Assembly: GCF_006345805.1 (NCBI RefSeq)
Contig: NC_042997.1
Span: 109,492,001-109,556,000 of the forward strand
Source: Octopus sinensis
Lineage: Eukaryota
Direction: 5' to 3'
DNA length: 64,000 bases
Position numbers and translations under genes: made by a program. The notes beneath the pieces are model-generated. The model was not told the DNA's origin. It saw nothing but the letters and a program-made list of their open reading frames with translations, and made no database searches. Of the stretch, positions 13,612 to 59,797 are shown piece by piece. The first letter of the stretch is position 1. Every line of letters begins with the position of its first letter.

Positions 13612-14187
13612 ATATATATATTATATATATATATATATATTATATATTATACTTACACACATCATATACATATATATACATACATACTCACCACCACACA
13701 CACATATAAATATATATATATATATCAACAATCAAGGAACGGCATAATAGGCCATTCACCCACTAGAAATAACAGCCAAAGCTTCAACCGCAAATAAAAG
13801 TCAATTCCGTAAACAGGAGAAAATTAAAAAACATTTACCCTGTAATTTCTTATACGATGCACCGTTTCATCTGCTGTTTAATGGTAAACTAACCTGATTA
13901 AATTAAATGGCCGTTCCTTGATTGTTGATGTTGGAACTTAAAAATGGTCTATGACTATTTAATTTTTCCACTAGGCCGCTAGTGGCAAAAAATTCTACAA
14001 AATTTTTTTTGCCACCCTATATTGATTAATTGTGAATTTTCTGGTTATTCCGTAATGGAATCGACGGCTTATATTTATTTGCTGCCGATAAATTTGGCGC
14101 GAGTGCGATGATTTGAAAATTTTAGGTCCGATATTACTTGGCAAGGTCGGAAATACCTCGTGAAAATATCTGTTCCGACTTGTGGCT

Positions 14188-14293
14188 ATTTCTTACTGAA
14201 GAATCTGAGGGCCTATGGAAGATTGGCTTGATTTAATTTAATCAGGTAGTTTACCATTAAACAGCAGATGAAACGGTGCATCGTATAAGAAAT
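14188..14293 (+). ncRNA. Type I hammerhead ribozyme (family C, copy 1)
   Basis: ATTTCTTA-CTGAAGA-ATCTG...CAGAT-GAAAC-GGTGCATC-GTA-TAAGAAAT; perfect 8-bp stem I; cleavage predicted after A14285. Confidence 0.9.
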
Positions 14294-14677
14294 TACAGGG
14301 TAAATGTTTTTTAAATTTTCTCCTGTTTACGGAATTGACTTTTATTTGCGGTTGAAGCTTGGCTGTTATTTCTAGTGGGTGAATGGCCTATTATGGCCGT
14401 TCCTTGATTGTGATGTTGAACTTAAAAATGGTCTATGAACTATTTAATTTTTTCCCACTAGGCCGCTGGTGGCAAAAAAATTCTACACAAATTTTTTTTG
14501 CCACCCTATATCGATTAATTATGAATTTTCTGGTTAATTCCGTAATGGAATCGACGGCTTATATTTATTTGCTGCCGATCAATTTGGCGCGAGTGCGATG
14601 ATTTGAAAATTTTAGGTCAGATATTACCTTGGCAAGGTCGGAAATGCCTCGTGAAAATATCTGTTCCGACTTTGGCT

Positions 14678-14784
14678 ATTTCTTACTGAAGAATCTGAGG
14701 GCCTATGGAAGATTGGCTTGATTTAATTTAATCAGGTTAGTTTACCATTAAACAGCAGATGAAACGGTGCATCGTATAAGAAAT
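14678..14784 (+). ncRNA. Type I hammerhead ribozyme (family C, copy 2)
   Basis: Same core and stems; cleavage predicted after A14776, 491 nt from copy 1. Confidence 0.9.
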
Positions 14785-15022
14785 TACAGGGTAAATGTTT
14801 TTTTTTTTTTTAATTTTTCCTGTTACGGAATTGACTTTTATTTGCGGTTGAAGCTTTGCTGTTATTTCTAGTGGGTGAATGGCCTATTATGGCCGTTCCT
14901 TGATTGTTGATGTTGAACTTAAAAATGGTCTATGACTATTTAATTTTTTCCCACTAGGCCGCTGGTGGCAAAAAAATTCTACAAAATTTTTTTTTGGCAC
15001 CCTATATTGATTAATTATGAAT

Positions 15023-30855: not shown

Positions 30856-30897
30856 GCTGCATTGAAAAGGGGCAATACCCCGAAACGCGTCTGTAGC
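30856..30897 (+). ncRNA. Minimal type I hammerhead ribozyme with a U3-A8 core (family E)
   Basis: GCTGCA-TTGAAAA-GGGG-CAATA-CCCC-GAAAC-GC-GTC-TGTAGC; lies in a ~300-bp island (about 30755-31060) between (TA)n tracts. Confidence 0.8.
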
Positions 30898-32847: not shown

Positions 32848-32850
<3 letters not shown>

Positions 32851-34777
32851 ACAATTGAGGGTAAATTAATTAATTAATCAATTTCACCAAGTATTCAGTA
32901 TGCAAAGGGACCATTTAAGGCGAATTCAATTATTACATTATATAAAAGGGCTTAGTAAAATAAATACTTTGCCGCATACTGAACTCATTAGAAATAGCAG
33001 CCAAAAAAAAAATTTTTAAAAAACTATTTCTAATACTTAAAGAAAAAACCTCTCTCATATAGTGTTTGCTCAATTCAACTCACGAAAGTATGGGGGTAGA
33101 GACATTAAAAAATCAAATGCAAAGGTTATTTGAGAACGTACGTTTCAAGATTAGTCAAACTCGACACTTTTATCATCAGCTCAGAACTCCCTGGTTTGGA
33201 TTTGAAAACACTGAAAGTGGGAGCATACCCTTCGGCTTCTTATCGCTTCTGAAGATCTGCTCGAACTAACAGTGCCAGCAAACTCAAATATGCAAGCGAA
33301 GAATTTTTGCTCTCCCCTTTCCACCAGCGAGCAGATCTTCAGAAGCGATAAGAAGCCGAAAGGGTATGCTCCCACTTTCAGTGTTTTCAAATCCAAACCA
33401 AGGAGTTCTGAGCTGATGATAAAAGTGTCGAGTTTGACTAATCTTGAAACGTACGTTCTCAAATAACCTTTGCATTTGATTTTTTAATGTCTCTACCCCC
33501 ATACTTTCGTGAGTTGAATTGAGCAAACACTATATGAGAGAGGTTTTCTTTAAGTATTAGAAATAGTTTTTAAAAAAGTTTTTTTTGGCTGCTATTTCTA
33601 ATGAGTTCAGTATGCGGCAAAGTAATTTATTTTACTAAGTCCTTTTATATAATGTAATAATTTGAATTCGCCTTAAATGGTCCCTTTGCATACTGAATAC
33701 TTGGTGAAATTGATTAATTATTAATTCTACCCTCAATTGTTGAAATTATAATTCATCTCTCTCTATTTAAATGCCTCGGATTTTACCGAAAAAAGCATAG
33801 TGTTTGCTGATTTTAAACCACGCTGGTGGAAAGGGGAGAGCAGAAATTCTTCGCTTGCATATTTGAGTTTGCTGGCACTGTTGTTTTCGAGCAGATCTTC
33901 AGAAGCGATAAGAAGCCGAAAGGGTATGCTCCCACTTTCAGTGTTTTCAAATCCAAACCAGGGAGTTCTGAGCTGATGATAGAAGTGTCGAGTTTGACTA
34001 ATCTTGAAACGTACGTTCTCAAATTAACCTTTGCATTTGATTTTTTAATGTCTCTACCCCCATACTTTCGTGAGTTGAATTGAGCAAACACTAATGAGAG
34101 AGGTTTTCTTAAGTAAGGATTAGAAATAGTTTTTAAAAAGTTTTTTTTGGCTGCTATTTCTAATGAGTTCAGTATGCGGCAAAGTAATTTATTTTACTAA
34201 GTCCTTTTATAAATGTAATAATTTGAATTCGCCTTAAATGGTCCCTTTGCATACTGAATACTTGGTGAAATGATTAATTAATTAATTCTACCCTCAATTG
34301 TTGAAATTATAATTCATCTCTCTCTATTTAAATGCCTCGGATTTTACCGAAAAAAGCATAGTGTTTGCTGATTTTAACCCACGCTGGTGGAAAGGGGAGA
34401 GCAGAAATTCTTCGCTTGCATATTTGAGTTGCTGGCACTGTTAGTTTCGAGCAGATCTTCAGAAGCGATAAGAACCGAAAGGGTATTGCTCCCACTTTCA
34501 GTTTTTTCAAATCCAAACCAGGGAGTTCTGAGCTGATGATAGAAGTGTCGAGTTTGACTAATCTTGAAACGTACGTTCTCAAAAAACCTTTGCATTTGAT
34601 TTTTTAATGTCTCACCCCCATACTTTCGTGAGTTGAATGAGCAAACACTATATGAGAGAGGTTTTCTTTAAGTATTAGAAATAGTTTTTAAAAAGTTTTT
34701 TTTGGTGGCTGCTATTTCTAATGAGTTCAGTATGCGGCAAAGTAATTTATTTTACTAAGCCCTTTTAATAATGTAAT
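32848..34777 (+). mobile_element. Retrozyme-like array (family F): ~2.6 tandem 560-bp units plus a ~480-bp inverted arm, in (TA)n
   Basis: HHR cores CTGATGA at 33413, 33973 and 34533 (560-bp period); 32848-33330 is inverted and carries an HHR on the minus strand at 33131-33183. Confidence 0.85.
33969..34021 (+). ncRNA. Type I hammerhead ribozyme (family F; also 33409-33461, 34529-34581, and 33131-33183 on minus)
   Basis: TGAG-CTGATGA-T-AGA...GTCG/TGAC...TCT-T-GAAAC-GTAC-GTT-CTCA; palindromic stem III AACGTACGTT; weak stem II. Confidence 0.7.
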
Positions 34778-38618: not shown

Positions 38619-39061
38619 ACATATGTATATATATATTTATTAAATTATATATTATTTACTATTTATATATATATATACATATATATATATATTTATATAT
38701 ATATATATTTATATATATATATATATGTATATGTATATGTATATATACATATATATACATATATATACTATATATACATATTTATATATCTACATATATA
38801 TATATATTATGCATATAATATATATATATATGTATGTATATATATATATATATATTTGAGTAATTGAATGAATTATCTTATTAAGGATAATTCGAAAGAT
38901 AACCGATACCTGGGTAGCAAATTCACATAAGAAAGACCACGGTTGAAGCTACGTCCCTAGGGCATAGACTACGTGTCTTCGTGCGGAAATTTGTATGTTT
39001 ATTCTAAAATTATAAGTATATGAAAGAATGGAGTTGAACGACTAGTTAACAAATATCCTTT

Positions 39062-39146
39062 ATTCTCGACATATGTTTCGAAGGCTGCATATTCCTAATT
39101 CCGAAGGAATAAGGAGTACATTATGCAGATTTCTCATCAGGAAAAT
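39062..39146 (-). ncRNA. Type I hammerhead ribozyme in the PLE 3' pseudo-LTR
   Basis: Reverse complement of 42699-42783. Confidence 0.8.
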
Positions 39147-39707
39147 CAAGGAACATATGTCGACATCAAAATGCACAAAAAACTTTTAGCTGACCGCTCT
39201 CAAGGAGCCCATGGCGATAATGAGTGTCACTTTATAATGAGTGACGTCAGAGTGGCTGAATGTAGAAGAATCTAGAAGTTTCTAAAGGTTCAAGAGTTCA
39301 AACGAAGTAGGAGGAGGGAGGCATAAGAATAGTAAGGTGAGAGAGTGCAGGTCAAAAGAATGGTGGGTTTAAATGATTTCTTTTGTGAATGAGTGCCTGT
39401 GTGTGTGACTGTATATAACTGTCTTAATGTGTGTATGTGTGTGTCTGAATGCGTGATTGTGTTTGTGGATGGGTAGATGTCAGAAAACTGACAGCTGTGA
39501 GGGGAAAGATCTGTGACTGTGTGTTCGATTATGTTGACTGTAGAGAAAGGAAAGTAGATAGCGAAAGGGAGAAAGAATCGGTCGAGGTGAGAGGCAACGC
39601 AAGAATGGATAGTAGTAATTGGGAATATAAGAAAACCTTTTTGACTATTGGGGTGAAATATAGCAAAAATTCTTTTTTGGAAATCGAGGGGTTATCTATA
39701 TTAGTCA

Positions 39708-42328
39708 CTATTTATATGAGTGAAAGGTGTGTCTTTTCCAGTGTAAACACCTGTAGGATCTTTCGACGATTATGTTTATTAAAGGGCCTTTGGCGAACAA
39801 AATATGAAAAAGTTCGGAATGACAGATGCCACAAAATTTGTCAAACGGGAAGGACCGACAAAATGGACCATTCGAGCTTGAACGTAGTGTTATTGTTCTT
39901 CAGACGCCAGACTAATTTGCTTAGCCCCGTGCTGTGTTGCTTTCTCTTATCTCTGAAAGTGGAATAATGGTTGGAGATCCTTTGGGCTAATTTAGAAGAG
40001 GTTGCGCCAATATAGAAGTAGACATCGGTTCCAGAAGAGATTTTGCATTGGTAAGTGGTGTTTCTAATTTTGGAATCTTGGGATAAGAACTTTAATCTGT
40101 TGGGGTTGGTTTCCGATACTAAGACAGAGTTTTTATTGTTGTGATGGGTGTAAAAATTGTTGGTGGCTTTGGCCACGATACTATTCATCTTATTATCATT
40201 ACTATTAGTTGTAATATCGTCGGCAAATTCCCTGGCTATATGAATGCTGCGATTGTTATCATCAATAATATAACTGTTATTAAGAATGCTGGTACTATTA
40301 CCACTAACACCGCCACTGTTAATAATCTGGCTAATGTTATTATCATTATTACTATTGCTAACGCTAATGCTGCTATGAATGTTGCTAATATCCATACTAC
40401 TTCTATTATTATTATTATTATTGTATGTTACGTTGGAATGGGTAAGGGCGGTGTCGCTATTCATGGGTGGAGAGACCCTATTTAGCAGCTTATTATTGTG
40501 GGAAGCTATTATCTGCGAAAGACTTTTAGTATTTGAGAATGCTATTCTTACTTTATGCGAATTTATAGTGGAGTAGTATCTAGAATTCCTAGGAAAATTC
40601 TTATTAACGGCTTCTCGGAATTGTAAAGGGAGATTAGACCTGATTTGTCTCCCGAAAGGAATCACAAACCAGATATAGTTTTTTTTGTTCATGGAATGGC
40701 TGAGAGTGTTGACATTTACATTAAAGGGTATATTTCTGTGTTGTAGAATGGGTTTAGGTTTACGCTGGCCTCGCCTGGTTCGTAAGTTATTATTGTAAAA
40801 TATATTTGTGTCGACGTTGCTAGAGCTGAAATCACTATTTATGTTATTTATATTATTATTAGAAGTTATCTTATCTTGATGGGCAGATGGGCCGGATCGA
40901 TATATGATACCTTATCACTATAACCGGCCTTTGACAAGGCGGCATTATAAAATTCTGCTTTCTGTTTTAAAATGTCGACATTTGCTGATAACTTAGATAG
41001 TCTTAAGGATATATTTTTAACCAAATTATCGGTGATAGTTTTTGCATGGTTACTGAAAATACTGACATATTTTAGGTTCGTAGACGGCTTATGGTAAGGG
41101 AAGTAAGAATTATTATGCAAATTTAGGGTAACATCTAAGAAATTGGCCTTAGTTAGTTCGTTGTCAAAAATTATGCTCATGCCCATCCTGCTGAAAAATC
41201 TAACTAATCTATTTTTAGTCTTCTGTATCCTACTGTTAGGGGCATTCTGTAGGTAAAAAAGACAATAGTCTCGATACAGACCGCCGCAGATGTCCGGGAA
41301 TTGGTCGGCTAATTCATATGGAATATAGATTCCGACCAAATCGGCTACCTGGGCGCTATCTGAGCTTCCCATTGGCACATCGAACGCGTTGGGAGTATCC
41401 TTTCGGACCCATAACTTATCGAATTGAATGAAGGATTTTCTAGCGGCTAGAATTATATTAATTTCCTCCCTTGTCAGCCCTGCCTTGTTATGTGCGTGCC
41501 ACAGGGCCTTATTGAGCACGATGGGGTTTATCGAAGAGTAGAAATTGGAAATATCGAATTGAATGAATTTAGTGCTATTTTTATTAGAAATGGAAGAGAG
41601 CCATTCTACGACTTGAGTGGAGTTAGACCATATTTTGAGTTTAAGCTTATTAACTAATCTAGGTATGTATTTATCTAAATTGTACTTACTTATGGAACCG
41701 ATGTCGAACTAGAAGGGCAAATGAGCCTTAATCCTGGGTTGGTTTGGAAGTTTGGTTTATGGTCCTTGACGATGAATCTTGGTTGCCTTGGGTTGAGTGG
41801 TTGTGTTTTCATTTGCAAACCATGGGTAACCATGATTTTCTTAATTTCCAAGTTGGCTTTTCTAAGTGTATCCTTATTTGTAGTTCTGTAATTCTTCTGT
41901 ATTTCCTTCGTGAGCAATTCTAAATACTGTTTTTTTGCTAGCTTGTATGTATTCCTGGTTTTATCTGATTGGACCAGGATAGCGTCTGAGCTGTTTATAT
42001 CTTTGGCAATTTTGTTGAGGTATCTAAGGTGTTTATTCCTAAGGGGCGATTTACGGAATTTAACGCTCCTTACAATGTCCCACAAGTCGTCCTCAAATTT
42101 CTTCAGTCTGGGATTGGGTGGCGGTGTCTCCCTCGACTTGAATAGCTACTTATATTCGGTAGATGTTTCTGTACCGTTCTGTTTTAAGTCCTCGTTATCA
42201 TGGAAGAAAGCGAGCCATCTAATTCGGTTGATGAATGCATTTGTTTTGTTGACAATTTCCTTAAGGAAGGTTTCTTTTGGTGGTATTGGTATGTCCTTAA
42301 GGGATGCGTTAATCTCGAACAACTCCAT
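39708..42328 (-). pseudogene. PLE reverse transcriptase + C-terminal GIY-YIG endonuclease (disrupted)
   Basis: SLKDIPIP..RIRWLAFF; SDKTRNTY; KDHKPNF..RLICP; FIQFDISNFYSSI; FDVPMGSSDSA; GLYRDY (YRDD mutated); NFLDVTL..YHKP..SNH; TYQC..FYIGAT..RISNH..STGLSKLVW; frameshifted CGICHSE..CLHWK. One TAG near 42146 and frameshifts near 41706, 40870 and 39850. Confidence 0.9.
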
Positions 42329-42698
42329 TTGCGGTATCTGTTAAGGTAGCAGGATCTGGACGAAGCTGTATATGAATATTTGAGTAATTGAATGAATTAT
42401 CTTATCAAGGATAATTCGAAAGATAAGCGATACCTAGGTAGCAAATTCACATCAGAAAGAACACGGTTGAAGCTACGTCCCTAGGGCATAGACTACGTGT
42501 CTTCGTGTCTTACTATTCTTATGCCTCCCTCCTCCTACTTCGTTTGAACTCTTGAACCTTTAGAAACTTCTAGATTCTTCTACATTCAGCCACTCTGACG
42601 TCACTCATTATAAAGTGACACTCATTATCGCCATGGGCTCCTTGAGAGCGATCAGCTAAGAGTTTTTTGTGCATTTTGATGTCGACATAAGTTCCTTG

Positions 42699-42783
42699 AT
42701 TTTCCTGATGAGAAATCTGCATAATGTACTCCTTATTCCTTCGGAATTAGGAATATGCAGCCTTCGAAACATATGTCGAGAAT
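42699..42783 (+). ncRNA. Type I hammerhead ribozyme in the inverted pseudo-LTR
   Basis: ATTTTC-CTGATGA-GAA..CTGCATA...TATGCAG..TTC-GAAAC-ATAT-GTC-GAGAAT; palindromic ACATATGT. Confidence 0.8.
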
Positions 42784-42861
42784 AAAGGATATTTGTTAAC
42801 TAATCGTTCAACTCCATTCTTTCATATACTTATAATATATATATTTATATATATATATATA

Positions 42862-46394: not shown

Positions 46395-48390
46395 TATCAC
46401 GTGCTTTTGTTGCACTACTGAGCGCAGCTCTGTGTGCTGTGTGTATGTGCTGTGGTTTATTGTGGTGCTCTTATTTTCACTGTATTGAAAGTGTTTTGCG
46501 TAGGATGTGTGCAGTACCTAGTAGTGCAATTTTCTGTATGTCATATATATTTGTAAGTCCTGGTGTTTTTGTTATGTATTTGTCTGAATATTTTTTATCA
46601 TACCTAATGCGCCTACTATGATAGGAATTGTTTCTGTTTTTAGATTCCACATTCGAGTTACCCCTATTTCCAGGTCTCTGTATTTTGAAAGTGTCTCCGT
46701 TTCTTTTAGAGAAACATTGTCATCTGTTGGTATTGATACATCATCGATTAGAAAGGTATTTTCTTGGTGATCTCTGACAACAATATCCAGCCTACTGGTC
46801 TTAATTTTTCTGTGTATTGGCATATGCCATAGTATGGTTGCTTTCTCGTTTTCTGTGACCTTCTTTTTTCTGTTGTTATTCCATAATGTTGGCATAGCTT
46901 CCAGTATATGTAGGTCCCACCTCTGTCGTGTCTGTGAATATATTCCTTCTAAGCCAGGACTGGGCAGCCAGAGATAATATGATTTATTGTTTCTTCTCCA
47001 TCTCCACATATTCTGCAGTTACTTGTATTTCTTTTCATTATATGTTTTTGATAATTTCTGGCGGTAAAGCTTTGTTCTTGCGCTGCAATTAAAAATCCTT
47101 CAGTCTCTGCTTTGAGTCCTGAGCTTCTCAGCCATTGGTGAGATTTTGTTTTGTCTATTTCTTTTCTGTTTAGTTTAACCCAGCATTTGCCATCTAGGGG
47201 CTTTTTTTGCCATCGTTTTACCATGATACGTTGCTGTTCCAGTTTTAGTTTGGATTTCAGTTGTTTTATAGCTTTTGTTGTTTCTTCTTTTTCTTCATAG
47301 TTGTTAGGTACTATGGCTTCTTTTTTTTGTATTTGTCAGCTTCCTTAAAGACAGAAAACACTTTTTTTGTTTTGTTTGTGTTTTGTAGCTATTTGTATCA
47401 GTTTTCCTTGCTTCTGAAGTAGGTATTTCTGTAGTCCTATGGTGGTTATTTAGTAATAGTTTTCTAGCTGTATAAAGCCTCTACCACCTTCGATATGTTG
47501 TATATATAACCTTTTCTAACAGGTGGTTAGGGTATTTTCCATGAAGGAGTTTACCCTTCCAGTTGTTTTCGATATTCATGCAAGCCTTCTTTGCTTTGTT
47601 TTTACTATCTACAATTTTCTAATGAATTTAAGTGTTCTATTTCTGATATATATTTTTTTTAATTGAGAATATATCTTCGTGTGTTAGCTAGTTTATTCGG
47701 GTTCATTGCTGTATCCAAATTTTTACCTAGGTTATTTTTTTTCCAGATTTTATATGTATGTGTTGCTGTGTTTTCGTTCTGTGGGTAGAGCACAGCTGTA
47801 AAATAAGCGCGTGGGATTGAAATATATTTCTCGCGTGTCCATTTATGCGGTTTTTTAATTTATTTGCGGAACATGAGAAATAATGTCTGCCCTTTATTTT
47901 GATGGTCGTCATTTTCGTAGGGGACGTTCATTTCTGGTGTTAAATAGTTTTGCAGGTGTAGTTTTCCGTACTTTTTGTGTAACAATTTTAAAGTACGTAC
48001 TTCCCGTTTGTTATCCTTGCGTTGAATAATACAAGTTTGATTTAGTCTATTTAAAACTTTTTTTATACATGTTAGTTTGGGACGGAGATGGTCTGATGGG
48101 ATTTGATCATAACGTGGCGAGCGTGTTTACACGTGATTGTGCGAGCGATGGAGATGACACACAGTTAAAATGCATTATTTCGTTTGGAAAATGGACATAA
48201 ATTTTTATGAGTATTACATACTCGGATATAGTCCGATACTTTTAATGAGTATTACTTACTCGGGTATTGTCTAACACTTTGTCAGTTATTTTAGGATCCA
48301 TATGATGTCTTTTTTCCGATGTTTTTGGATAGATTTCAGAACAGTATTTTATCGCTCTCACACATGTTAAACGTCTCCGGTGTTCTCCTA
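46395..48390 (-). mobile_element. Internally deleted R4/Dong-type non-LTR retrotransposon
   Basis: N-terminal KWTRE..AY..TYKIW..NPNKLANTRR (about 47600-47900) joined to C-terminal WLRSSGLKAETEGFLIAAQ..CRICG..ETINHIISGCPVLA and RLE-type DIVV..IDDVSIP..KYRDL..PIIVGALG; (AAT)n at the 3' end. Confidence 0.8.
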
Positions 48391-50019: not shown

Positions 50020-50790
50020 TTAGATGGAGAGTGTTTTCCGTAGTATACGGGCTGTACCCATCAAGGTTATCTTTTGTAGCTCACGGAGATTGGAGTTACC
50101 AGGCAGTTGCTTAACATACTTCTCAGCTCCCTTCTTTATCATTCCCAACGTACCAATTACTACTGGTATTATCGAAGTATTTCAATTTGCAGATCTTTAT
50201 AGTAAGAAAGCTTTTTGTATTCTTTTCTTGAGATATTTTGATATTGTGGGACTGACACATCTATTAACAGACAAGTTCCTCTCTTGTAGTCCTTGATCAC
50301 AATGTCTGGTCGACTACTGTCAATTTCTCTGTCTGTTTGTATTGGGAAGATCCAAAGTATGGTGACGCCCTCACCATTTATTATATCTGTTGGATGGTGC
50401 CCGTACCACTTATCATGGGATTTAATTTTGTAGTATTTACAAGCATTCAGTAGATGTACTGCCACAGTCTGTCATGTCTTATGAGGTACTCCTTTTCAGT
50501 GAGGACTGGGCAGCCAGAAACAACATGATCAATCGTCTCTGTGAATTTTCCACAAATTCTGCATGAGGGGTCAGATCCATCTTTAAGGTAATTTCTGGTA
50601 GGTAAGCTCTGACCTTGCACTGCAATAACAAAACCTTCTGTTTCCCCTTTCAGACCTGTCCCCTGTAGCCATTGGTGTGTTTGATCAATATCTAGCTTAG
50701 ACAGGTGGCTAGAGTATTTTTCATGCAGGAGTTTACGCTTCCAGTTGTCTTCCATATTATTCATGCAAGCCCTCTTTGCTCTTTGTTTGA
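50020..50790 (-). pseudogene. R4/Dong-type LINE C-terminal fragment (CCHC + restriction-like endonuclease)
   Basis: LKGETEGFVIAVQ..CRICGKFTETIDHVVSGCPVL..RHD; RPDIVIKD..LIDVSVP..KYYKDL-like motif. Confidence 0.85.
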
Positions 50791-50824
50791 TGTATTTTGC
50801 ATCATTATTATTATTAGTAGTAGT

Positions 50825-50874
<50 letters not shown>

Positions 50875-50904
50875 CAGCAGCAGCAGCAGCAGCAGCAGCG
50901 CAGC

Positions 50905-50988
<84 letters not shown>

Positions 50989-51523
50989 CAGTACTAATTT
51001 TCTGGAAAAAGTCCTCTTTGACAATAGCTAAAATGTAAAAGAAGCTGTTCGGTGTCTCTTTGGTGTTTCTGCGGATTCAATTCTCTTCCTGCCACGACGA
51101 GGAACTCAGTTGGAAGTTTGTACTAGTGATCCTTTCGTGAGGTTGTCATCACCACGGGATACTGGAAGCTACGACGGCAGCTGGTGTCGCCCTCCGTGTC
51201 TTTAACCAATTTATAGTCTTGCTATAGTCTCTGCCAGACACCCTGCGTAGAGAAAAATGCCAAAGGCTTCAAAGTTATTCATTACACGACACACCGACTT
51301 CAAAAACTCAAATCAGACTGTATTTCAAAAGAAGACATTATATCCGAATATTTTAATTATAATTAATTATGATTAATTATAAATAATACTTCGTAAATAA
51401 ATAATACTTCGTAGCTTTCACAGAACGCCTTCCATTTCTGGAAAATAACAATTCATTGGTTTAACGTTAATTACATTTCAGTAAGGGTAATTACATCTAA
51501 AAATTAAATTATTTTGAGACCAC

Positions 51524-58242: not shown

Positions 58243-58288
<46 letters not shown>

Positions 58289-58289
<1 letters not shown>

Positions 58290-59797
58290 CAACAATTGAG
58301 GTAAAATTAATTAATTATTAATCAATTCACCAAGTATTCAGTATGTAAAGGGACCATTTAAGGCGAATTCAAATTATTACATTATATAAAAGGGCTTAGT
58401 AAAATAAATTACTTTGCCACATACTGAACTCATTAGAATAGTAGCTAAAAAAACTTTTTTAAAACTATTTCTAATACTTAAAGAAAATCTCTCTCATATA
58501 GTGTTTGCTCAATTCAACTCACGAAAGTATGGGGGTAAAGACATTCAAAAATCAAATGCAAAGGTTATTTGAGAACGTACGTTTCAAGATTAGTCAACTC
58601 GACATTTCTATCATCAGCTCAGAACTCCTTGGTTTGGATTTGAAAACACTGAAAGTGGGAGCATACCCTTTCGGCTTCTTATCGCTTCTGAAGATCTGCT
58701 CGAAACTAACAGTGCCAGCAAATCCAAATATGCAAGCGAAGAATTCTGCTCTCCCCTTTCCACCAGGTGGGTTAAAATCAGTAAACACTATGCTTTTTCG
58801 GTAAAATCCGAAGCATTAAATAGAGAGAGATGAATTATAATTTCAACAATTGAGGGTAAAATTAATTAATTATTAATCAATTTCACCAAGTATTCAGTAT
58901 GTAAAGGGACCATTTAAGGCGAATTCAAATTATTACATTAATAAAAGAGCTTAGTAAAATAAATTACTTTGCCACATACTGAACTCATTAGAAATAGTAG
59001 CTAAAAAAAAACTTTTTTAAAAACTATTTCTAATACTTAAAGAAAATCTCTCTCATATAGTGTTTGCTCAATTCAACTCACGAAAGTATGGGGGTAAAGA
59101 CATTAAAAAATCAAATGCAAAGGTTATTTGAGAACGTACGTTTCAAGATTAGTCAACTCGACATTTCTATCATCAGCTCAGAACTCCTTGGTTTGGATTT
59201 GAAAACACTGAAAGTGGGAGCATACCCTTTCGGCTTCTTATCGCTTCTGAAGATCTGCTCGAAACTAACAGTGCCAGCAAACCCAAAATATGCAAGCGAA
59301 GAATTTCTGCTCTCCCCTTTCCTCCAGCGTGGGTTAAAATCAGTAAACACTATGCTTTTTCGGTAAAATCCGAAGCATATAAATAGAGAGAGATGAATTA
59401 TAATTTCAACAATTGAGGGTAAAATTAATTAATTATTATCAATTCACCAAGTATTCAGTATGTAAAGGGACCATTTAAGGCGAATTCAAATTATTACATT
59501 ATATAAAAGAGCTTAGTAAAATAAATTACTTTGCCACATACTGAACTCTTAGAAATAGTAGCTAAAAAAAACTTTTTTAAAACTATTTCTAATACTTAAA
59601 GAAAATCTCTCTCATATAGTGTTTGCTCAATTCAACTCACGAAAGTATGGGGGTAAGACATTAAAAAATCAAATGCAAAGGTTATTTGAGAACGTACGTT
59701 TCAAGATTAGTCAACTCGACATTTCTATCATCAGCTCAGAACTCCTTGGTTTGGATTTGAAAACACTGAAAGTGGGAGCATACCAAGTGGGAGCATA

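What the first reader, a model, noticed from the sequence alone, without database searches (positions are those of the whole stretch)
32848..34777. 560-nt retrozyme-like family present as two independent arrays 24 kb apart
Seen: seven HHR-bearing copies over two loci. Array-specific variants (GCGGCAAAG vs GTGGCAAAG, GGCTGCTA vs AGCTACTA) are shared within an array. This locus has a head-to-head inversion at about 33330 that could form about 480 bp of dsRNA or a cruciform. Inference: each array was copied from one template molecule by rolling reverse transcription; the unit is large for an animal retrozyme.
Basis: partly seen in the sequence, partly recalled or inferred. Interest (0 to 1): 0.7.

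Follow-up and report, generated by a model that had tools for sequence, protein, structure and literature searches.

The report
Hammerhead retrozyme inserted Penelope-style, two arms
These are two ordinary copies of a widely scattered 560-base non-coding repeat with a predicted self-cutting (hammerhead) RNA motif; the inversion is the family's normal insertion shape, two back-to-back arms ending at two fixed sites in TA microsatellites, likely made when a borrowed Penelope-type retrotransposon enzyme copied one RNA from both ends of a DNA cut.

Summary
In detail: seven hammerhead (HHR) cores in two arrays 23.5 kb apart, unit about 560 nt, inversion at 33328/33329. The arrays are two members of a dispersed family (1,979 exact HHR matches in the genome). 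The inversion is not special. In 41 loci taken by position, 24 are two-armed. In 23 of these, one arm ends at site Y and the other at site X, about 95 nt upstream, both next to (TA)n. This is the known Penelope-like (PLE) inverted-copy-plus-tail structure; autonomous Hydra-type PLEs of this genome follow the same rule. In a second family (also in this window), a cleavage-site junction fills about 18 units in both arms of a single locus, the best sign of repeated copying of one RNA. This family's HHR looks weak; cleavage, circles and the partner PLE are not shown. The size lies within the published range. The scan noted the same kind of element at other DNA of this genome. New member of a known kind.

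The parts
32848..33329 (-). Left arm of insertion 1: 0.86 unit, 5' end at the junction (unit position u410), 3' end at site Y (CCCTCAATTGTTGA) joined to (TA)n
33328..34777 (+). Right arm of insertion 1: 2.6 head-to-tail units, 5' end at u476, 3' end at site X (u239-248) joined to (AT)n
33328..33329 (.). 5'-to-5' junction of the two arms with a 2-nt overlap (CG); the arms start 66 unit positions apart
33131..33183 (-). Type I HHR copy 1; helix II G-C pair broken by G>A; predicted cut 33135|33134
33409..33461 (+). Type I HHR copy 2; same G>A change; predicted cut 33457|33458
33969..34021 (+). Type I HHR copy 3: helix I TGAG/CTCA, core CTGATGA...GAAA, U.U at the base of helix II, palindromic helix III ACGTACGT, GUU triplet; predicted cut 34017|34018
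34529..34581 (+). Type I HHR copy 4; predicted cut 34577|34578
34142..34317 (+). Conserved end region (u170-345) holding sites X and Y and predicted hairpins; 93% identical to the sister family against 71% elsewhere; inferred binding and initiation region for the reverse transcriptase
58287..59784 (-). Insertion 2: single arm of 2.7 units of another subfamily, 3' end at site Y, (TA)n on both sides, about 16-nt direct duplication at its 5' end; HHR cores 59734, 59176, 58617
13725..15022 (+). Second, unrelated HHR family (B, 490-nt unit): inverted 181-nt arm plus 2.3 units, HHR cores 14196 and 14686, same two-fixed-end architecture (supporting evidence, outside the finding)
38856..42836 (-). Broken autonomous Penelope-like element of Hydra type (RT and GIY-YIG-like pieces, DKT motif), HHR at 39140(-) and 42705(+), 328-nt inverted arm, ends at two fixed sites about 150 nt apart; no sequence similarity to the finding's unit

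Best explanation
The arrays are two independent insertions of a young, dispersed, protein-free 560-nt repeat with a predicted type I hammerhead, likely a non-LTR retrozyme mobilised by a Penelope-like retrotransposon whose enzyme would prime reverse transcription from both ends of a cut in (TA)n, at two fixed sites on one RNA template. SHOWN: dispersal, TA flanks, the two fixed 3' ends X and Y about 95 nt apart, one arm to each site, one haplotype per insertion, short overlaps at the junction, and a conserved, compensated RNA fold. INFERRED (0.9): a PLE protein (RT plus GIY-YIG) acts in trans. INFERRED (0.75): one DNA end primes at Y, the other at X, each cDNA runs for a variable length, and the two are joined by microhomology, which gives the head-to-head form; if only one arm extends, a single array such as insertion 2 results. 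INFERRED (0.7): multi-unit arms arise at insertion by repeated copying of one molecule. INFERRED (0.5): that molecule is a covalent circle made by slow, probably dimer- or protein-assisted HHR cleavage and ligation, rather than a linear RNA copied by end-to-end template jumps. The hairpin is a by-product.
For: 1,979 exact matches of the HHR 3' half in G000; 1968 candidates, best 40 at 94-97% identity over full units. Loci taken by position (41 of the 44 in the first 100 matches; three already held were left out, counted by eye): 24 two-armed, 23 X+Y, 1 Y+Y; 17 single (10 Y, 7 X); all 65 outer 3' ends at X (u239-257) or Y (u333-341). Loci chosen by similarity: 33 of 40 two-armed events X+Y, none Y+Y. 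Family B 15 of 16 and sister family A' 7 of 10 two-armed events X+Y. Autonomous Hydra-type PLEs: in the 7 of 20 fetched loci picked because they showed an inverted arm, and in the window's own element, the main arm ends 211-226 nt and the inverted arm 60-75 nt after the HHR GAAAC. Haplotypes: 745 of 766 locus-by-site cells uniform (334 expected), both arms alike in 562 of 574 (349 expected), with 11 of the 12 misses from two separate insertions 4.8 kb apart; 490 of 512 and 315 of 319 in the other sets. The partner arm is longer than the Y arm in 12 of 40 events, and 25 of 40 junctions overlap by 1-13 nt. Family B: four tandem derivatives start exactly at the predicted cut; one fills about 18 units in both arms and its junction occurs at that locus only (14 of 14 matches). 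Circular fold z -3.3 and -6.0; 9 compensatory changes against 1-4 in slid controls. A' keeps the core with better helices. Papers: inverted 5' copy and tail in PLEs (PMC8557442, PMC3846280); both strands cut and extended with two internal start sites (PMC11167929).
Against: No autonomous PLE with similarity to the unit was found among 100 PLE-bearing loci. The HHR is non-canonical: U.U at 10.1-11.1, 4-bp helix I, GUU triplet in 149 of 198 matched copies of A and A'. The HHR fold costs about 5 kcal/mol against the free fold, and the 96-nt region folds no better than shuffles (z +1.3). 5' ends at the predicted cut are inconclusive in this family: 7 of 37 at u46 (2.3 expected, p 0.007), but no excess over u44-46 (p 0.71) and 0 of 63 within 8 nt in the positional set (1.9 expected). 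No derivative array joined at the cut was seen in family A. Uniform haplotypes would also follow from one active source locus at a time, from gene conversion or from polishing. Insertion 1 is not perfectly uniform (u549 and u10 differ among its units), and some arrays show later local duplication (L054, L109). The tail is 95 nt, not the published 30-40. The derivative-array evidence comes from family B, and only a 14-nt window around the cut was searched.
Confidence: 0.75

Rival explanations
1. Same PLE-driven two-end priming, but the template is a linear, uncleaved multimeric transcript of a homogeneous source array, or two RNAs from the one active source locus; no circle is needed and the HHR of this family is near-silent.
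For: Weak HHR features; no cut-site excess in the positional set; in the anole PLE the HHR is dispensable for insertion in vitro and unprocessed RNA is the main substrate (PMC11167929); 8 of 9 predicted Xenopus retrozyme dimers did not cleave.
Against: Family B locus L196 has a junction found nowhere else in the assembly, repeated about 18 times across both arms, which a pre-existing linear source cannot supply; the whole-unit fold is compensated and stable as a circle; arms up to 9-10 units.
Confidence: 0.3
2. Insertions were short (about one unit) and the arrays grew later by unequal crossing-over and gene conversion, as Li et al. 2026 suggest; the uniformity is concerted evolution.
For: Blocks of adjacent units share private changes in L054, L063 and L109; at this locus the left arm and the innermost right unit share a private G>A, as arm-to-arm conversion or polishing would give.
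Against: Both inverted arms match their locus haplotype even at outer units, while two separate insertions 4.8 kb apart do not; the X arm of L196 would have had no repeat to expand from with only one junction; most private changes are in a single unit (142 of 177).
Confidence: 0.1
3. The inversion arises by fold-back self-priming of the first cDNA, or on an antisense template (Arkhipova et al. 2013).
For: Some junctions are near-perfect palindromes (L206, L209, L212, L204, L308); 8 of 40 offsets are 20 nt or less (2.9 expected).
Against: The excess was not repeated by position (2 of 24, by eye); offsets of X-ending events fit a uniform spread (KS p 0.6); the partner arm is longer than the Y arm in 12 of 40, including this locus (1451 against 490 nt). 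It may explain a minority of copies.
Confidence: 0.07
4. The inversion is an assembly chimera.
For: The assembly has many one-base indels in these repeats; no read across this junction could be seen.
Against: The two flanks are different unique sequences; the arms end at Y and X like 23 of 24 other loci; the centre is offset by 66 nt rather than mirror-symmetric.
Confidence: 0.02

Closest known systems
Animal non-LTR retrozymes (Cervera and de la Pena 2020, PMC7229834, parts 2-3 of 6 read plus term search; Li, Clavereau and Pollet 2026, 10.64898/2026.07.22.740005, parts 1-3 of 5 read plus term search)
   Same: Non-coding tandem units, one type I HHR per unit, GC under 50%, self-paired circular fold, co-occurrence with PLEs; the U.U at the base of helix II is as in axolotl HHR_Amex2; size within 51-972 bp.
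   Different: Larger than the 170-400 nt of the 2020 paper. A term search found no 'inverted' or 'microsatellite' in the 2020 text and no 'tail' in the 2026 text, whose single 'inverted' is in a reference. Cleavage and circles were shown for coral, mussel and axolotl, not here. No pLTR homologue was found here.
EN+ Penelope-like elements: inverted 5'-truncated copy plus tail (Arkhipova et al. 2013, PMC3846280; Craig et al. 2021, PMC8557442; passages only)
   Same: Head-to-head inverted copy, tail on one end only, (TA)n targets (Hydra, Naiad), HHR near the 3' end, microhomology junctions.
   Different: No ORF; both arms can be multi-unit arrays; tail about 95 nt (108 in family B, about 150 in the Hydra-type PLEs here) against 30-40 nt; arm lengths argue against the self-priming model of 2013 for most copies.
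Anole Poseidon PAc in vitro (Frangieh et al. 2024, PMC11167929; parts 1-2 of 4 read)
   Same: Two internal start sites that bound the tail, cutting and extension of both strands, AT-rich targets, weak protein-assisted HHR.
   Different: That paper found no difference in start site between strands; here the two ends of an insertion use different sites in 23 of 24 loci.
LINE-1 twin priming
   Same: Two primers from one target site give a 5' inversion joined by microhomology.
   Different: There the second site is variable and next to the end of the first cDNA; here it is fixed, and the arms run for several units independently.

Membership tests
Animal non-LTR retrozyme | Head-to-tail units of some hundred bases, each with a type I HHR motif | tested here: met
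   5 of 7 window copies pass the descriptor, 0 of 3000 shuffles
Animal non-LTR retrozyme | No protein coding, no LTR/PBS/PPT, low GC | tested here: met
   Only one 126-aa stop-to-stop antisense frame in the array; GC 0.33-0.35; PBS and PPT were not searched separately
Animal non-LTR retrozyme | Dispersed multi-copy family | tested here: met
Animal non-LTR retrozyme | Highly self-paired monomer RNA | tested here: met
   Circular MFE z -3.3 and -6.0 against 40 shuffles; 9 compensatory changes against 1-4 slid
Animal non-LTR retrozyme | HHR self-cleaves | tested here: inconclusive
   Indirect only: 7 of 37 5' ends at the cut but 0 of 63 near it by position; core kept in the 79%-identical sister family
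Animal non-LTR retrozyme | Expressed as linear and circular monomer RNA | not testable with these tools
   Only contigs of runs not on record as RNA were available
Non-autonomous Penelope-like derivative | Inverted 5' copy and one-sided tail (two fixed 3' ends) | tested here: met
   23 of 24, 33 of 40
Non-autonomous Penelope-like derivative | Microsatellite (TA)n target | tested here: met
Non-autonomous Penelope-like derivative | Autonomous EN+ PLEs present in the genome | tested here: met
   Neptune-type ORFs of about 780 aa with RVT_1 and GIY-YIG; Hydra-type ORFs of about 900 aa
Non-autonomous Penelope-like derivative | Sequence homology to the pLTR of an autonomous partner | tested here: inconclusive
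   None among 100 loci, a small sample of 5029 and 12800 candidates
Autonomous PLE | RT plus GIY-YIG ORF between pLTRs | tested here: not met
   No such ORF in the unit; no element body beside the arms in the fetched loci

The most novel reading that the evidence does not exclude
These families record the Penelope insertion reaction directly: the two DNA ends of one cut prime at two dedicated sites about 100 nt apart on a single circular, ribozyme-made RNA and roll independently, so the PLE inverted repeat and tail are one product of asymmetric two-end priming, and retrozyme arrays are born multi-unit.
Probability: 0.45. Interest if true: 0.65.

Novelty: new member of a known kind. Interest (0 to 1): 0.38.

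Why it matters
How PLEs make tandem and inverted ends, and whether retrozyme arrays come from rolling reverse transcription or from later DNA amplification, are open questions (PMC8557442; 10.64898/2026.07.22.740005). A family with about 900 HHR-bearing loci, two fixed start sites and one haplotype across both arms gives exact predictions for an in vitro PLE assay. It defines a 175-nt candidate cis element. The locus itself is an ordinary copy, and the scan has noted the same kind of element several times in this genome.

Tried and rejected
Rfam: no hammerhead match. Sequencing runs: no RNA holder listed. Contigs of one untyped run and three runs guessed to be RNA covered 30, 26, 28 and 19 of 30 bins of the locus in short pieces; they cannot show transcription, strand, circles or editing, and this locus's junction was not among the 15 of 45 joints shown. 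An apparent unique leader before unit position 511 of the query was an artefact of split alignments. Idea that 5' ends pile up at X or Y (primers colliding on one circle): 23 against 12.8 expected in selected loci, not repeated by position (5 of 63 against 5.6); rejected. Excess of fold-back junctions: 8 of 40, 2 of 24 by position; not kept. Cut-site 5' ends in family A: 9 matches (8 after dropping a full-length copy with an inserted base) against 1 at a control site; 52 matches reduced by eye to 37 events after dropping full-length copies with indels and duplicates; mixed statistics. Homology between families A and B: alignment score 124.5 against 121 +/- 14 for shuffles; none. Partner search through GIY-YIG hits and through the window's own PLE: none found. 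A second CTGAAGA on the opposite strand of the unit forms no HHR. The tree separates subfamilies but not all loci: the nearest neighbour lay in the same locus for 45 of 111 units, was tied for 30 and lay elsewhere for 36. L097, L098 and L104 were dropped as duplicates of L096, and overlapping fetches of A' were dropped. Literature searches listed no paper on this family or on strict X/Y use in retrozymes; subscription journals, Repbase and supplements were not seen and may hold such a description. Gene context was not tested.

Full report
Observation. The window lies in an animal genome held as G000 (2.72 Gb; the scan's earlier notes call it a cephalopod, not checked here). Seven CTGATGA cores stand in register in two arrays, 32848-34777 and about 58287-59784. 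With unit position u1 at the core of 33973, insertion 1 is a minus-strand arm of about 481 nt (from u410 to the site ending CAATTGTTGA, here site Y) joined 5'-to-5' through a shared CG to a plus-strand arm of 1451 nt (from u476, 2.6 units, ending at u239-248, site X). Insertion 2 is one arm of 2.7 units ending at Y. All outer ends touch (TA)n. A read-through RNA would pair 407 bases around a 66-nt loop.

The ribozyme. The motif is type I: helix I TGAG/CTCA, core CTGATGA and GAAA, helix II opening with U.U, palindromic helix III ACGTACGT, GUU at the cut. Five of 7 copies pass a descriptor that hit 0 of 3000 shuffles; the two copies beside the junction have lost a helix II pair. Rfam does not call it. 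The monomer fold is unfavourable (-5.7 against -11.1 kcal/mol), while the palindrome could pair between two copies (-11.6). This is the dimer mode described for metazoan HHRs (PMC4209133, parts 1-2 of 4 read; PMC7229834). A sister family A' (234 motif matches; 79% identical) keeps the core with A-U at the base of helix II, a 6-bp helix I and GUA. The motif is therefore conserved, but this family's version looks weak. Whole units fold as circles better than shuffles (z -3.3 and -6.0). A structure predicted from one A unit shows 9 compensatory changes in A' against 1-4 in slid controls.

The family. G000 holds 1,979 exact matches to the HHR 3' half; the first 100 fall in 44 loci over 109.5 Mb (loci counted by eye), so a neighbour within 24 kb is unremarkable. 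I fetched three sets: 35 loci most like insertion 1 (the query ended at Y, which biases single arms), 20 like insertion 2, and 41 of the 44 loci taken by position. In the positional set 24 loci are two-armed, 23 with one X and one Y end and one with two Y ends; 17 are single (10 Y, 7 X); all 65 outer ends lie at X or Y (counted by eye; one Y arm is only about 20 nt). In the other two sets 33 of 40 two-armed events are X+Y, 6 have one other end, 1 is X+X in a complex locus and none is Y+Y; 25 of 40 junctions overlap by 1-13 nt. The region holding X and Y is the best conserved part of the unit (93% against 71% between A and A'). The inversion is thus the normal product, not a chimera and not a special dsRNA device.

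One template per insertion. At polymorphic sites, 745 of 766 locus-by-site cells are uniform (334 expected from family frequencies), and the two arms agree in 562 of 574 (349 expected). Eleven of the 12 misses come from two separate insertions 4.8 kb apart, a natural control. The other sets give 490 of 512 and 315 of 319. The window's arrays belong to different subfamilies (2.5-4.2% apart), and insertion 2 groups with six loci on other contigs, so the variants are not array-private. Against a pure reading: insertion 1 has two sites that differ among its units, and three loci show later local duplication. Uniformity alone cannot tell a circle from a transcript of a uniform source array.

Evidence from neighbours in the window. 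A second family (B, 13725-15022, 490-nt unit, canonical HHR, no homology to A) follows the same rule in 15 of 16 two-armed events. A search of 14 positions around its predicted cut (100 of 108 matches listed) gave four tandem derivatives of about 290, 318, 350 and 401 nt, all starting at the cut and lacking the HHR core. The 290-nt one fills about 18 units over both arms, and its junction occurs at that locus only (14 of 14). This needs a cleaved 5' end and repeated copying of one molecule, by a circle or by end-to-end jumps. Junctions elsewhere in the unit were not searched. The same search in family A gave no such array and only a mixed signal of 5' ends at the cut. The window also holds a broken autonomous PLE (38856-42836) with DKT motif, C-terminal GIY-YIG-like piece and HHRs (no significant Pfam hit), matching the Hydra clade as described in PMC8557442 (passages) though without its RWK motif. 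Its family is abundant, with open frames near 900 aa, and ends its main and inverted arms at two fixed sites about 150 nt apart in 7 of 7 loci picked for an inverted arm out of 20, and in the window copy. Neptune-type PLEs are abundant too. Neither shares sequence with the unit, so the partner is not identified.

Mechanism. A PLE protein likely binds the conserved end region, cuts (TA)n on both strands, primes one end at Y and the other at X on the same RNA, extends each for a variable length, and the cDNAs are joined by microhomology. This fits the anole PLE, which cuts and extends both strands and starts at two internal sites that bound the tail (PMC11167929), though that paper saw no strand difference in start site. 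Fold-back (PMC3846280, passages) cannot give a partner arm longer than the Y arm, as in 12 of 40 events including this one, but may explain some palindromic junctions. Two further ideas of mine, pile-ups of 5' ends at X/Y and an excess of fold-backs, failed in the positional set.

Comparison and verdict. It works like a PLE insertion and meets every sequence-level feature of an animal non-LTR retrozyme that could be tested; cleavage is inconclusive and circles are untestable here. The size is inside the published 51-972 bp. The link between retrozymes and PLEs is in print, as are the inverted copy and tail. The strict X/Y use with one haplotype in both arms was not listed in my seven paper searches; supplements were not read. 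The scan's notes describe the same kind of element at other DNA of this genome; none matched this sequence. New member of a known kind; interest 0.38.

Noticed in passing
window 13725-15022: Second HHR retrozyme-like family (490-nt unit, 8-bp helix I, long loop II, GUA triplet), 1301 candidates in the genome, same two-arm, two-end architecture.
   Followed up: yes
L196 (G000:C13:24734467-24739732), L197, L198, L201: Family B derivative arrays that start exactly at the predicted HHR cut and lack the core; L196 has about 18 units in both arms and a junction found only there.
   Followed up: partly
window 38856-42836: Broken Hydra-type Penelope-like element with an Asn-rich linker, HHRs at both inverted ends and a tail of about 150 nt; 12800 candidates for its RT, many with open frames near 900 aa, missed by Pfam.
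   Followed up: partly
L214-L233: Sister family A' (567 nt, 79% identical, 234 motif matches) with a more canonical HHR and the same X and Y ends.
   Followed up: yes
L166-L175: Neptune-type PLEs with a U3-A8 core variant HHR (TTGATAA) about 70 nt before the TA-joined end, and an upstream frame of up to 479 aa without a significant Pfam match.
   Followed up: partly
window 30862(+) and 28997(+): Two more descriptor hits for type I HHRs; the one at 30862 has a U3-A8 core and resembles a motif in L175.
   Followed up: no
unit positions u143-163 and u492-537 (L284-L323): 5' ends of arms cluster here (9 and 13 of 63), possibly pause or joining hot spots at predicted helices.
   Followed up: no
L286: The one two-armed locus whose arms both end at Y; both arms share one haplotype.
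   Followed up: partly
unit position u4 (HHR core A6): 9 of 164 calls differ (C, T or G), more than at neighbouring core positions; unexplained.
   Followed up: no
window 46572-47335 and 50447-51076: Open frames with RxCG zinc-knuckle-like text that look like non-LTR retrotransposon fragments (label recalled, not tested).
   Followed up: no
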